Shown piece by piece: positions 1-18,000 of a stretch of 64,000 nucleotides of DNA; positions within the stretch are counted from its first letter, which is position 1; each line of letters starts with the position of its first letter. The stretch spans positions 62,001 to 126,000 of the forward strand of contig MEUA01000017.1 in the NCBI GenBank assembly GCA_001771505.1, given 5' to 3'. This DNA is from a candidate division WOR-1 bacterium RIFOXYB2_FULL_36_35. GTDB taxonomy: Bacteria > Margulisbacteria > WOR-1 > XYC2-FULL-46-14 > XYC2-FULL-37-10. The position numbers were made by a program.

Positions 1-3000
1 TCCTTCTTCTCCAAATTCTTTATTTTGCAAAAGCATAACAAAAAAACTTGATATTATGGAGCTGTTTTCTTTTGTTCCGACGCATTGAATTGCTGCTTTT
101 ATTGTATGTGATGTTGGATGGTTAGCGCCGGATACCATGCCATCTGCTTCCCCGCAATCTACAAGCATGCCGGCAAAAAAAGGATAATCTGTGGTTAATA
201 TTTCATAAGCCTTTTCTTCTGTCATTCCTTTTTTTTCAAGTTTAATCTGAAATTTTCTTGCAAATTCTTTGATCCTTGGATAGTTTGCAGGAACTATGAA
301 CTCAATGCCTGTTAAGTCTATGTTGTTTGCCGCAGCATTTTCTTTAATTTTGTTTTCGTCACCAATTAAAATTATTTTTGCCAATCGGCTTTTCGTTATA
401 AGCTCTGAAGCTTTTAATATTCTAATATCTTCTGATTCGGGGAGGGCTATTTTTTTTGTTGATCGTTTAGCTTTATTCCAAATGTCTTGTATGAAATCCA
501 TTTTTCCCTTCTTTCTTTGTTTTTTGATCCCTTGAATTACTTTAAGGGCCTTTCTCTCTTTTGTTGTTATTGTATTTTATGTAAGAGCTTTTTGCAAATC
601 TTCTTTAGTATATATCCCTTTATCTCTTAAAAAAGGGATCATTTTCATCCATAATTGATAGGTTGTTTCAACGTCTCCCAACGCCCGATGCTGGTTTAAA
701 CCTTTAATCCCGAAATAGGATGCGACGGTGTGTAATTTGTGGTTAGAAAGGTTAATAAGATATTTTCTTGATAATTTAAGAGTGCAAATGAGGATGTTGG
801 AGAATTTTTTTTTGCTGTGATGTTTTAAAAAAGGGATATCAAAATCCGTGTTATGCGCGACAAGCATATCATCTTCTATAAAACTTAAAAACTTAGGGGC
901 TATTTCCTCTATTTTTGGATGCTCTGCTACCATTTCTTGGTTTATTCCTGTCAGTTGTTCAATTTGCGGGCTGATTTGAGATTTTGGATTAATCAGGTGG
1001 TTAAAAATATCTTTTATCTCTCCATTTTCTATTTTAAGCGCGCCTATTTCTATTATTTCGTTTATTGACGGATCAAGTCCTGTGGTTTCTATATCTACAA
1101 TAACATATTTTTCTTTTTCAAGTTGAACTATATGTTCCCTGGCTCTAGAAAGAAAAGGAAAAAGTTTTTCCAATCTTTGAAATTCTCTGTCTTCAAGTAG
1201 ATCTTGCATAAATTAAATTATACGATGTCTGTCAAATTTTGTTTAATTATATTTCTTTTGGGGGTCAAAAAGTTTTTTGAGGAAAAATATTCATATTCTC
1301 CGGGAGACAAAGTTCCAAGTGTTATATTTTCGATTCTAACTCTTTTTAAAGTGATTACATTGTTTTTGACTGCCGATACCATTTTTCTGATCTGTCTTTT
1401 TTTCCCTTCTCTTAGGATAATATTAAATTTTTTATTGGTGATTGTTTTTAACTTTGTTGGGAGTGTTTTTCTCCCATCTATTATAATTCCGTCCTCAAGT
1501 TTTTTGATTTCCTGATCAGACAATTCTTTTTCAACTGTAACCTCATATTCTTTTTCATGTTCATATCTTGGATGCATTAGTTTGTGTGCAAGTTTTCCGT
1601 CATTTGTGAGGATTATTAATCCTTCAGATTCTTTATCAAGGCGACCTACGGGATATAGCCGGGCAGGGATATTTTTTATAAGATCAAGTACTGTTCTTTC
1701 TCCGGTATGTCTTTTGCATGAACTTATGTATCCTTTTGGTTTATAAAGTTTTATGTAGATTTTCTCTTCCTGTTTTTGAATATTTTTGTTATCAATTATA
1801 ATTTTGTCTTTAGATGGGTCTATTTTTGATCCCAGTTTTTTTATGATTTCTCCGTTTACTTTTACTTTGCCGGAGGTAATAAGTTTTTCCGCTCCTCTTC
1901 GCGAGGCTATTCCGCATTCGGCAATATATTTTTGAAGACGTACTTCTTGTGGCATTAAGGTTTGTCTAACTCACGGACTTTTTGAATAAAACCCAAAGCA
2001 TTTTTTACTTCCTGCATATCCTGCCATGTTAACCATTTTGGCGATCCCTTTTCTTTCCTAGGGTTGCGAAGTAAATATGCCGGATGAAAAAGAGGCATGA
2101 CATCAATGTCTGTTCCGGGAAGTTTTCTCCATTTTCCTCTTATTTGCGTTATAGGTTCATCTATCTTTAAAATAGCTTTTACAGCCGGAGTCCCGGCAAG
2201 TAAAATGATTTTGGGCTTTATATACTGGAATATCTGAGCCTGAAGATAGGGAGCGCATGCCTCTTGTTCGGAGGCGAAGGGGGCTCGGTTGTCTGGCGGC
2301 CTGCATTTAACTGTATTTGCTATATAGATATCATCGGGTCGTTTAATGCCTACAGATTCTAGAATTTGCGTTAATAACCTCCCAGCCCTTCCTACAAACG
2401 GAAGCCCTTGAATATCTTCGTCAGCGCCGGGGGCTTCACCGATAAGCATTAAATCACAGGGTACCGGACCATTGCCAAAAACTACTTTTGTGCGACCCTG
2501 AGATAAAGGACATTTAGTGCAGCTTTGGCAAATCTTTTCAGCTTCATTATAGGGAAGGTTACTAAAATCAGTCGGTTTAGAAAAAAGATCCATCTGCTTC
2601 AAATTGTATCAAATGAAAGATTTTTGTGCAATATGGGCTTTTGCGTTAATGACAGTTTTTGCTATTTGTCATCCCCGCGAAAGCGGGGATCCATCTTAAC
2701 CCCGATTATCATAATTGGGGTTAATAATTAAGGTTAAGTTTTTTAAGTTTTCAATGCAAGATTTTTATAAGTTACTTCGACATATAAAGTGTGAGAACTT
2801 ATATTATATATAATCTGAGGAGGTTTTTCTCTTGAGCTTAACTCCTGTTGATAGAGCTAGTATTAGGGGTGTTTTTACGCAGCTAAATCCTTTTGGGGGC
2901 TTTAAAAGAACTCAATTAGATGCTACAGAGAGAGTCTCTATCTCTTCGTCCGCCGCGCAAGCTTCGGAGCAGCCAGGCGAAATAGAACCGACACAAACTT

Positions 3001-15000: not shown

Positions 15001-18000
15001 CCGCAAGGAATGAATCTTTAAAATATGCGACAGGGGACTTTATTTTATGGGTTGATGCTGATGAGTTTATTGCGGAAGAAAAAATTCAAAAGCTTCGATC
15101 TGTTTTATTAGATATCAAAGAAGATGCTTTTTATCTACCTGTTTATGAAGCAAAATTTGGGCAAAAAGAGGGAACTAAGTTTTATTTCAGATTAAAAGGT
15201 TTTAAAAATAAGAAAGGGATTCATTTTGAAAGGGCTTTTAATGAACAGGTTTATGATTTATCACATCAGCTTGTTTCTTCTTCTTTATTCCTTGGGGGCA
15301 TTGAAATTTTTCATTGGGGGACAGATTTGTCAGAAGAAAAAACCAAACTTAAAAGAGAGAGAAATTTAAGAATATTAAAGAAAAAACTGCAAGATGAACC
15401 AAATGATCCTTATTTTCATTTTATGCTGGCAAATAATTATTATGAAACAGGCTGTTTTGATTTAGCCTTTGATTGTTATGGTGAAGTTGTCAAACTACTT
15501 CCTAATAATCACATAGCAATTTCTTCAAGAATTAAAAGAGCAAGAATTCTTGTAAAACAAAAAAAATTCCAAGATGCTTATGCCGAATTAAAGAGTGTTT
15601 TGAATTTAGATAGCACAAATGCCGAAGCGTTTAATCTTATTGGAAGCATATATATATCGACAAACAACCTTCCTTACGCAATTAAAATACTTGAGCACGC
15701 GTCTACTCTTGTTTTGCCCCAAAAATCTTTGAAAAGTTTTAATGTTGATGATTATACGTTTTTACCCAGGTTCCTTCTTGCGAATGCTTATCTTTTAAAC
15801 GGACAAAAAAAGGAAGCTTTAGAAACTTTTACTGCGGCGTATGAATTTAAACATGATGCAAATGTTTTGCGTAGAATTGAGAAATTGCGTGTGGAGATAG
15901 AAGGAGACAAGTCAAATGGGCGTTAATCCTATTATAGATAATGCAGCGACTCAACAGACGGCGGTTGCTTTAAATAATAGTGTAACAGTTGAGTTAAAAG
16001 AGCTTGAAAAAAAAGGTCGGCAGGAACCCGGCAAAAATAAAGTTCAGAGTTCTTCTGATATCTCAAAATTAATTCAAGATGGAATTAATCCCAGCAAGGC
16101 TGGGATAGATATTCTTGCGAGTTTGGCTTCTCAGCTTGCTGCGACGGGGGTCTCTCTTGATCCCGAGAAGTTTTCCGGAAAAGCAAAAAAAGAACTGGAA
16201 GATCAATTTGGAAAATTGTTTTCGCCTGATGAGAGTTTTAGTGATATGGTCCAGGTAAATACTGTTTTGAAAAAAGCAAAAAACTTAAATAACAATCAGG
16301 ATCAGAACGGCAATAGAGGCAATGCCAGCGCTATAAACATAGATAGTGAGACGCAAGGTCTTGTTAAGGAGTATGCCGCTTACTATGCCCAATATATAGT
16401 CAGCAATTCGCAGGAGTTGAAGAAAAAACTCGAGAAGATAGAATCTTTGTTGCAGGAAAAAGGATTAACCGCCAAAGATTTTATATCTATAAAAACTTCT
16501 GTAACAAATTCGATGCGCGCTGAAATTAAACAACAAATAAGGGACGCCTTTTTTAATACGGTTCTCAGCAAGAAAAAAACAATTGAATTTGTAATAAACG
16601 AGAAAATGTTAAATCAAGTTTTGGATTTTAGTCTAAAAAAAGGCGTTCATGATGATGCGACTTTACAGCTTTTGGCTGATGGTGTCAGAGAAGAAGCAAA
16701 AGAAGAGATTAAGGATTTTGCGAAAAATAAGATGGAAGAGAGTCTGATGGGCAAAATTCTCTCTTCGGATTCTAAGGTTTCTCAAAAAAGCACAGAAGAA
16801 CTCAAAGAGTTGATTAAATTGGCATCAAAAGTTGGAATTGATTTGAATGAGTTTTCAAAAGACTGGAAAGTAAAGAAACATGATCTTGGATTATTTGTCG
16901 CAGATATTCCCTTGAGCGGGGGAGGGTTAAATTCCGATTCGCAAAATAAAAAAGAGAAAAACCCTTATGAATTTACAAAAGATGATGAAAAAGACTTATT
17001 GATTAATAGGTTAAGGGCTGTTTATATGCATCGTGCTCTTTCTGGTGATTTAGCATCTATTATGAATACTTATTTTAAAATACGGAGATTGAAAAACGGT
17101 TTAATAAAGCTTGGAATTAGTAGCGATGAATTTAAAAATATAGAAAAAGATGGAACGGGTTTGGCCAGATTGAGACTCATCGACATGTTGAAATCCGCAT
17201 TAGAAGAGAGGGCTACTCTATATGAGTTGGCTGGACCTGCGTTTAAATTGATCGAACATAAGATTAAGGGGATACTTGAAAACATTAAAAGGCTTGGTTG
17301 GGATTTAAGTGACACAGAATTTAGTTCGTTAAGAGATAACGCAAATATTAAAGTTCTCAATGCGGCTAAAGATGAGTTTTTATCTGTGAGGGCTATTTTA
17401 AAAGAGAGTAATAGGCCTGATTTGGATAAGAGATTATCTTTAATATTGAAACTTATGAATCGGTTAAAAGGGGAGTCTAATCTTGATCTTGAGATACCTA
17501 AAAGAGAGTATGAATTTAGGGAAGCTGTTTAACCCCGATTATGATAATCGGGGTTGATTTCTGGTTTGACCGTGAATAATCGGGGTTAATTTATTAAAAG
17601 AGGTGATTAATATGGCGGTAAATAATGTGGCGATTAATGATATTATGAAGATAATAAAAGATACGAATCCAAAAGATGCTGTTGATAAGATTATTGAAGA
17701 GACGCGTTCTCTTATTGCCGAAATTACAAAGCAGATGTCTGAGGCTAAACTTACAGAGAAAAACAAGCTTCGTAAGGTTTTGGAAAAATTGGACGCATTA
17801 AAATCAGGCGGCGGTGATTTTAATGGTAAGCTGGAAGATGTTTTGCAAAATTTAAATTCATTAAAAGACCTGGATCCTGAAATTTACAATATGTTGAAAC
17901 CTGTTATAGACAAATTAAAAGCTATACAACAAGAAAGAGATAAACTTTCTGCGCAGATAATTTATAATCCTGTGTTTGGCGGTACAATCGTTTGATTATT

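What a model noticed while it worked through the whole genome (the two positions that open the first line are those of the whole stretch)
2832..17995. Needle-subunit-like small proteins in a conserved locus
g00515 and g00516 are paralogous 100-aa helical hairpins with a conserved C-terminal helix and a variable middle; g00515 resembles the injectisome needle subunit SctF. They lie in a conserved orphan locus (g00511-g00522, with glycosyltransferases) found across the phylum. They are candidates for the filament that replaces flagellin on the flagellum-derived export system, a flagellar base with a needle-type filament.
Evidence so far: ESM Atlas features for g00515: T3SS_needle_F clusters at 0.94 and 0.93, 198 of 256 features shared, 13 of 30 hits, all ten best named hits of one family (157). 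Models: two long helices (114, 135, 149). Family of 128 clusters at 50% identity, nearly all 95-190 aa (172). Present in 27 of 58 phylum genomes, often as an adjacent pair, also in 8 flagellated ones (142). Order g00512-513-(514)-515-516-517-519-520-521 kept in G060 and G064 (99, 148); g00517 homolog next to the pair in G005, G021, G064, G069, G108, G111, G114 (153).
(Added by a program. Inside this text positions count along the whole contig: contig position 62,001 is position 1 of the stretch shown here. "Call 12" and the like, gene names such as g00115 and contig names such as C1 are that model's own, and its searches are not shown. The text may have been shortened before it was handed on; [...] marks where a part breaks off. 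The agent that wrote the report below was given it as the finding of a first reader that could run no searches.)

Follow-up and report, generated by a model that had tools for sequence, protein, structure and literature searches.

The report
Needle-like proteins for a filamentless flagellum
Nearly all Margulisbacteria genomes examined carry a flagellum-type export machine that has no flagellin, and this conserved gene block encodes small two-helix proteins that likely form its thin surface filament, though kinship to injectisome needle proteins could not be shown.

Summary
The two small genes (10658-10966, 11108-11428) are real paralogues (HH 92.8%); the first folds as a predicted two-helix hairpin. 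The genome has a flagellar export gate, rod, rings and short hook, but no flagellin, FlgK/FlgL, cap or stator was found.

New here:
- FlhA occurs in 135 of 146 phylum genomes, flagellin-family genes in 15. Flagellated genomes carry two FlhAs, and the flagellin-less type forms its own clade.
- The block's 538-aa gene is in 72 of 72 high-quality genomes; a hook-type flgE follows it directly in 12 of 41 loci.
- Some genomes carry several g00515 copies with constant C-helix and variable middle.

SctF homology is not shown: only the language-model hit (0.94) supports it, and block-shuffled decoys match as well. Translocator-like (1731 aa) and gatekeeper-like (538 aa) readings are leads only.

Best reading: late-substrate operon of a second, non-motile flagellum-derived type III system, g00515 its likely filament subunit (0.5). 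The scan noted this block and its flagellar neighbour earlier in another genome (e1-1085419).

The parts
4763..4787 (+). FliA/sigma28-like promoter before the 1731-aa gene
   Evidence: same motif before 6 of 7 homologues in other genomes
4795..9990 (+). 1731-aa protein with five tandem repeats of about 200 aa; four end in a hydrophobic segment; candidate translocator-like polyprotein (lead only)
   Evidence: repeats; hydropathy; 61 of 146 genomes; weak SctE scores; no Pfam or NCBIfam family
9990..10280 (+). 96-aa orphan (g00513)
   Evidence: one close homologue in G141
10294..10318 (+). FliA/sigma28-like promoter before the 88-aa gene
10331..10597 (+). 88-aa orphan (g00514)
10603..10627 (+). 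FliA/sigma28-like promoter before g00515
   Evidence: motif within 500 bases upstream of 7 of 26 orthologues, 0 of 26 on the opposite strand
10658..10966 (+). g00515, 102-aa predicted helical hairpin with variable middle; candidate major filament/needle subunit; strong ribosome-binding site
10976..11003 (+). GC-rich inverted repeat followed by T residues just after g00515; terminator-like
   Evidence: read directly from the sequence; not scanned or folded
11108..11428 (+). g00516, 106-aa paralogue, almost always single copy and better conserved; candidate minor/adaptor subunit
11488..13800 (+). 770-aa orphan with conserved ends and variable middle; candidate tip or adhesin (inference only)
   Evidence: 39 of 146 genomes; no family
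13829..13853 (+). FliA/sigma28-like promoter before the 181-aa gene
13882..14813 (+). 181-aa and 129-aa orphans; one 240-310-aa gene at this position in other classes matches one or the other
14814..15926 (+). GT2 glycosyltransferase with TPR repeats; candidate glycosylator of the exported subunits (inference)
   Evidence: Pfam PF00535 E 8e-23 plus TPR
15916..17532 (+). 538-aa all-helical orphan, the most widely detected gene of the block; candidate gatekeeper (SctW-like, lead only)
   Evidence: 129 of 146 genomes, 72 of 72 high-quality; Atlas SctW 0.88; model; no fold match
17603..17995 (+). 130-aa coiled-coil-like orphan
2832..4717 (+). 408-, 113- and 72-aa orphans upstream; similar-sized genes precede the large gene in several relatives; role not tested

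Best explanation
This block likely encodes the late exported parts of a second, flagellin-less flagellum-type export machine found across Margulisbacteria, and g00515 likely polymerises into a thin needle-type filament on its short hook, with g00516 as a predicted minor or adaptor subunit. Shown: the genome encodes an export gate, ATPase complex, MS and C rings, rod, P and L rings, a 271-aa hook-type protein, length-control-like proteins and two FliA-like sigma factors, while flagellin, FlgK, FlgL, FliD, FlgM, FliW, FlhF, a stator and the FliG torque domain were not found. Its FlhA belongs to a lineage separate from the motility FlhA. The block co-occurs with it, adjoins flgE in another class, and carries FliA-like promoters. 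Inferred: after the hook is finished a FliA-like sigma switches the block on; the subunits travel through rod and hook and stack by their two helices, leaving the variable middle exposed; the 1731-aa repeat protein would be delivered last to a contacted cell membrane; the 538-aa protein would set the order of export. The machine would serve contact or secretion, not swimming.
For: Base present, distal and motor parts not found in a 96%-complete genome. FlhA in 135 of 146 genomes against flagellin-family hits in 15. 13 flagellated genomes have two or more FlhA matches; two full copies were extracted for 7 of them. The G000-type copies form one clade (100/100), the others group with outside FlhAs (83/98), and a single Margulisbacteria clade is rejected, AU p 0.003. 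The 538-aa gene is in 72 of 72 high-quality genomes, FlhA in 70 of 72. flgE lies within 100 bases of the 538-aa gene in 12 of 41 loci; in G029 the block is about 5 kb from fliMNOPQR-flhBA. Four FliA-like sites against 0.08 expected, conserved before the large gene in 6 of 7 other genomes; the -10 consensus GCCGATAA is from PMC12784957 (passages). g00515: five copies in G077, three in G079, three tandem positional copies in G057; among 11 copies from 6 genomes of one family, mean identity is 97% in the C-helix, 51% in the N-helix, 27% in the middle. Positional orthologues shrink to 73-100 aa. Atlas needle hit 0.94. Abby and Rocha report similarity between SctF and FliC/FlgL (PMC3459982, passages).
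Against: No sequence or fold test links the family to SctF or flagellin. A 112-sequence SctF profile ranks family members high (9 of top 20), but so does its reversed version (8 of 20). In hhalign SctF ranks 2nd to 11th among itself, 41 decoys and 7 other templates. The g00515 fold is generic: best Z 7.3 (prefoldin), WXG100 proteins 6.0-6.5, flagellar axial proteins 6.2-6.8. g00515 is found by profile in only 17 of 146 genomes, one probably false; many orthologues are assigned by position, and the two positional sets align only weakly (32%). In seven flagellated genomes the g00516 homologue lies apart from the 538-aa gene with no g00515 seen beside it. The promoter motif precedes only 7 of 26 and 3 of 22 orthologues. 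Codon bias of g00515 is unremarkable, rank 1121 of 1758 by a crude index. No filament has been observed. In G000 the block is on a different contig from the base genes.
Confidence: 0.5

Rival explanations
1. The block belongs to the same export system, but g00515 and g00516 are soluble exported substrates or chaperone-like partners (for example a WXG100-like heterodimer escorting the 770-aa or 1731-aa protein), and the machine ends at the hook as proposed for Buchnera.
For: Paired hairpins of about 100 aa; WXG100 proteins score as well as anything else by fold and EsxB tops the A8 profile search at E 0.03; no SctF homology; ordinary codon bias.
Against: No central W-x-G is visible in the alignments. 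A near-invariant C-helix with a variable middle in multi-copy g00515 fits a self-stacking exposed subunit better than a chaperone (inference). g00515 has its own promoter and a terminator-like hairpin.
Confidence: 0.27
2. g00515 and g00516 are minor junction or cap-adaptor proteins, standing in for FlgK/FlgL or for the inner rod, and the large repeat protein or the 770-aa protein is the real distal structure.
For: Two paralogues in tandem recall FlgK/FlgL or SctF/SctI pairs (recalled); six flagellar axial chains appear among the top 22 fold hits; g00516 is nearly always single copy.
Against: Amplification of g00515 to three to five variants is hard to explain for a junction protein; no profile match to FlgK, FlgL or flagellin termini.
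Confidence: 0.13
3. The block is unrelated to the export system; it is a phylum-core surface or envelope module that shares a sigma factor and, in one class, a neighbourhood.
For: Both are nearly universal in the phylum, so co-occurrence has little power and kin are not independent; no adjacency in G000's class; a type IV pilus/type II cluster is also in the genome.
Against: flgE follows the 538-aa gene at -40 to +95 bases in 12 genomes; FliA-like promoters; two independent Atlas queries from the block returned type III secretion families, needle and gatekeeper.
Confidence: 0.1

Closest known systems
Injectisome needle subunit SctF (MxiH/PrgI/YscF, Pfam PF09392)
   Same: Small size (positional orthologues 73-100 aa), predicted two-helix hairpin, conserved C-terminal helix, likely type III export; language-model similarity 0.94.
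   Different: No profile or fold homology above decoys; longer helices and a 20-60-residue variable insert between them; associated with a rod, P/L rings and hook rather than a secretin-based base.
Buchnera hook-basal body without filament (as described in PMC3459982, passages)
   Same: Flagellar base kept in a non-motile cell, proposed to secrete proteins.
   Different: Here the system is a phylum-wide separate FlhA lineage that coexists with a true flagellum in 13 genomes and has a dedicated block of orphan late genes; it is not the remnant of the resident flagellum.
Myxococcales 'needleless' type III system (PMC3459982, passages)
   Same: Lies between flagellum and injectisome, no motor, no type III secretin.
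   Different: That system lacks FlgBCDEK, FliEG, FlgH and SctF; this one keeps FlgB, C, E, F, G, H, I, FliE and a shortened FliG and has needle-sized candidates.
Flagellin late-gene and glycosylation loci
   Same: sigma28-type promoter, neighbouring GT2-TPR glycosyltransferase, several copies with constant ends and variable middle.
   Different: The subunit is about one fifth of flagellin's length with no detectable flagellin, FlgK or FlgL similarity.
WXG100 (EsxA/EsxB) pairs
   Same: Tandem helical hairpins of about 100 aa; fold Z 6.0-6.5.
   Different: No central W-x-G visible; genomic context is type III; a type VII ATPase was not searched for.

Membership tests
SctF needle subunit | Match to PF09392 or to an SctF profile | tested here: not met
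   No hit for 27+24+22 members in Pfam or genome-wide at E 10; 112-sequence SctF profile no better than reversed or block-shuffled decoys; DUF5407 gave 0 of 146 over cut-off
SctF needle subunit | Helix-turn-helix hairpin of about 80-100 aa | tested here: met
   AlphaFold2 helices 8-39 and 63-101, pLDDT 72.6; a generic feature
SctF needle subunit | Fold match to solved needle subunits | tested here: inconclusive
   All hits generic, Z at most 7.3
SctF needle subunit | Polymerises into a hollow helical tube and is exported by the type III gate | not testable with these tools
Non-flagellar injectisome | SctV/SctJ-type core with SctC secretin, no rod, P/L rings or hook | tested here: not met
   FlhA, FliF and FliI score better as flagellar; FlgB, C, F, H, I, FliE and hook-type genes present; two secretin genes exist, one next to the pilus cluster, neither examined further
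Non-flagellar injectisome | Gatekeeper SctW | tested here: inconclusive
   538-aa protein: Atlas SctW 0.88 with 141 of 256 features; MxiC comparison E 0.16; Pfam none in 46 members; fold search generic
Non-flagellar injectisome | Hydrophobic translocators SctE/SctB | tested here: inconclusive
   Five repeats, four hydrophobic segments; an SctE protein ranks first or second of 25 templates for 4 of 4 repeats at P 0.006-0.03, not significant; PF04888 no hit
Motility flagellum | Flagellin, FlgK, FlgL, FliD | tested here: not met
   genome 96% complete
Motility flagellum | Stator MotA/B and FliG torque domain | tested here: not met
   for G000 (MotA families and FliG_C; MotB not searched); other classes keep FliG_C genes
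Motility flagellum | Export gate, ATPase, MS/C rings, rod, L/P rings, hook | tested here: met
   FlhB, FliP, FliQ, FliR named by order and sequence reading only; hook protein only 271 aa
WXG100 | Central W-x-G motif and PF06013 match | tested here: not met
   alignments; no PF06013 among listed Pfam hits
sigma28 (FliA) regulon | -10 GCCGATAA-like element with upstream -35 element | tested here: met
   sequence match only, variant -35 CAAG; transcription not tested

The most novel reading that the evidence does not exclude
Margulisbacteria, the sister lineage of Cyanobacteria, keep a living intermediate between flagellum and injectisome: a flagellar rod, ring and hook base that crosses the outer membrane without a secretin and carries a needle-type filament (g00515/g00516), a gatekeeper (538 aa) and a tandem translocator polyprotein (1731 aa), used to contact or inject host cells. 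Its FlhA falls on the SctV side of the motility FlhAs in a small tree.
Probability: 0.25. Interest if true: 0.93.

Novelty: new variant of a known kind. Interest (0 to 1): 0.74.

Why it matters
The step from flagellum to injectisome is thought to have passed through a motorless, secretin-less machine with an ancestral needle (PMC3459982), but the extant intermediate described there, in Myxococcales, lacks the needle. A phylum-wide system that keeps rod, rings and hook and adds needle-sized subunits would be a direct test case. Even if it arose independently, it suggests that most members of this uncultured phylum use a contact or secretion device, which bears on whether they live on hosts. g00515 is a small gene whose polymerisation can be tested in vitro.

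Tried and rejected
- SctF homology by Pfam, NCBIfam and PDB profiles: none.
- Apparent enrichment with a diverse SctF profile: rejected, the reversed profile does as well. hhalign P 0.004-0.01 beat column shuffles but not 7-residue block shuffles.
- Fold searches list no SctF chain for g00515 and no SctW chain for the 538-aa core; absence from these lists is not exclusion.
- Flagellin, FlgL, FlgK termini, FlgN, FlgM, SctI, tip and chaperone templates: nothing significant.
- Whole 1731-aa profile against IpaB: E 0.04, off the hydrophobic region.
- Viral contigs: no loci. A single-protein scan of genome contigs gave only two Marinamargulisbacteria loci, so range outside the phylum is untested.
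- Expression: no RNA holder listed.
- Literature: searches for Saganbacteria/Margulisbacteria/Marinamargulisbacteria with flagellar terms and for Termititenax (listings and abstract starts only) showed no description of this system. PMC6349859 has no occurrence of flagell, secretion, pili or motil in its main text (supplements not read). The termite-gut Margulisbacteria genome paper was not held and may mention these genes.
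Full report
Observation. The region 2832-17995 is a run of 14 same-strand ORFs. Only the GT2-TPR gene has a Pfam family above cut-off, and NCBIfam names none of the 12 others scanned. Their family profiles match at 92.8%, E 3.9e-7. AlphaFold2 gives g00515 two long helices joined by a low-confidence loop. The Atlas hit to T3SS_needle_F (0.94, 198 of 256 features) is reproduced; that tool says shuffled proteins reach 0.9 in 4 to 10 of 100 cases. 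Names of homologues and record titles place the family in Margulisbacteria, including Saganbacteria and Marinamargulisbacteria.

The export system. G000 (96% complete) encodes FlhA, FliO, FliN, FliM, FliF, a 201-aa FliG, FliH, FliI, FliJ, FliE, FlgB, FlgC, FlgF, FlgA, FlgH, FlgI, a 271-aa hook-type protein, a length-control-like protein and two FliA-like sigma factors; FlhB, FliP, FliQ, FliR and FlgG were read from order and sequence. Flagellin, FliD, MotA and the FliG C-domain were not found, nor FlgK, FlgL, FlgN, FlgM, FliW or FlhF by tblastn with relatives' proteins (these labels come from gene order and size). Across 146 phylum genomes FlhA occurs in 135 (70 of 72 high-quality) and flagellin-family genes in 15. 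Thirteen of those 15 have two or more FlhA matches. For seven, both copies were extracted: one is followed by FlhF/FlhG-sized genes and fliA; the other groups with G000. In a 22-row tree the G000-type clade has 100/100 support, the motility copies join outside FlhAs at 83/98, and a single Margulisbacteria clade is rejected (AU p 0.003; same shape). Only three outside FlhAs and four SctVs were included, so the position relative to injectisomes is a hypothesis. The separateness of the lineage is well supported.

Link between block and system. The 538-aa gene is in 129 of 146 genomes and 72 of 72 high-quality ones; the g00516 family in 71 of 146, including 12 of the 13 two-FlhA genomes; the 1731-aa repeat region in 61; the 770-aa gene in 39. 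Because both sets are nearly universal, co-occurrence alone is weak. Adjacency is stronger: a homologue of G000's hook-type gene follows the 538-aa gene at -40 to +95 bases in 12 of 41 loci, all outside G000's class, and G029 has the block about 5 kb from fliMNOPQR-flhBA. The scan had noted this neighbour before (e1-1085419); I rechecked it on 41 loci.

Promoters. A motif CAAG-N15/16-YCGAT occurs four times on the block's coding strand and never on the other, against 0.08 expected. The pattern was drawn from two of these sites, so the independent support is its presence before 6 of 7 homologues of the large gene in other genomes and before 7 of 26 g00515 orthologues, with none on the opposite strand. 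It was absent before most of the minimal orthologues (3 of 22). The -10 part matches the sigma28 consensus GCCGATAA (PMC12784957, passages). Flagellins of flagellated relatives show the TAAA -35 form in 3 of 9 cases, so the second system may use its own variant (inferred). g00515 has its own site, a strong ribosome-binding site and a terminator-like hairpin.

Is g00515 a filament subunit? For: it is amplified in some genomes (five copies in G077, two of them identical; three in G079; three tandem positional copies in G057). Among 11 copies from one family the C-helix is 97% identical and the middle 27%, the pattern expected of a stacked subunit with an exposed loop (inference). Positional orthologues fall to 73-100 aa. 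Against: profile searches find it in only 15 to 17 of 146 genomes; positional sets align weakly; in seven flagellated genomes no g00515 was seen beside the g00516 homologue; codon bias is ordinary.

Is it SctF? Not shown. I built a 112-sequence needle profile. It put 9 family members in the top 20 of 3327 small ORFs (109 family members), but the reversed profile put 8 and shifted versions 7 to 9. hhalign gave P 0.004 and 0.01 for two alignments, above column shuffles, yet block-shuffled decoys scored as high or higher and larger alignments dropped to ranks 3 and 11. Fold searches were generic: six flagellar axial chains lie among the top 22, tied with prefoldin and other hairpins. The language-model hit stands alone.

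Other genes. The 1731-aa protein has five internal repeats, four with a hydrophobic segment. An SctE translocator ranked first or second of 25 templates for each of four repeats, none significantly, and PF04888 gave nothing. I guessed a gatekeeper role for the 538-aa protein before querying the Atlas, whose top hit was SctW at 0.88 with only 141 shared features. Its model is all-helical with pTM 0.45 and has no SctW match. Both readings are leads.

Comparison with what is known. Abby and Rocha (PMC3459982, passages) derive injectisomes from flagella through a secretin-less ancestor with a needle, note similarity between SctF and FliC/FlgL, and cite Buchnera's filament-less basal body as a separate exaptation. 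This system differs from Buchnera in being a distinct lineage with its own late genes, and from the Myxococcales system in keeping rod, rings and hook. My searches (listings only) and a term search of PMC6349859's main text found no description; one relevant genome paper was not held and no supplements were read.

Verdict. That the block belongs to a second, flagellin-less flagellum-type export system: about 0.85. That g00515 is its major filament subunit: about 0.5. That it is an SctF homologue: about 0.3. The full intermediate case: 0.25. New variant of a known kind; interest 0.74.

Noticed in passing
G057:C18:33181-33799, G053:C41:23077-23706, G021:C35:19895-20542, G050:C15:135526-136170 and others: In many flagellin-less genomes outside G000's class, a 470-500-aa gene with a FliG C-terminal domain sits directly beside a MotA_N-like gene of about 260 aa: a rotor/stator-like pair with no filament.
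   Followed up: no
G000 C44:17561-21184, C48:33816-35441, C48:20526-21683, C52:3327-3794, C57:25149-25835, C14:12596-13306: Six other genes carry the same FliA-like promoter motif; most look like orphans and are candidate substrates of the export system.
   Followed up: partly
window 53391-63900 and G000:C17:127192: Type IV pilus / type II secretion cluster (ATPase, platform protein, several pilins, PilM-like) followed by a secretin just beyond the window; labels read from sequence except the secretin.
   Followed up: no
G077:C40:6253-12565 (L254): Four g00515 copies separated by small mobile or toxin-antitoxin-like genes; two copies and their flanks are identical, so either recent duplication or assembly.
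   Followed up: partly
G070:C22, G076:C1, G079:C59 and C144, G069:C9, G058:C14: Homologues of the 1731-aa repeat protein reach 4000-5100 aa in other classes.
   Followed up: no
window 30323-31531, 47325-48860, 48909-50309: Ser/Thr-rich repeat lipoprotein-like gene, a large surface-protein-like gene and an S-layer-homology-like gene (read from sequence only).
   Followed up: no
window 18067-21427: Three further glycosyltransferase-like genes right after the block (two with Pfam hits); not conserved in position in most relatives.
   Followed up: partly
G097:C67:1781, G127:C4:62270, G007:C64:1277: Isolated strong MotA or flagellin-family hits in genomes with a single FlhA; possibly contamination.
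   Followed up: no
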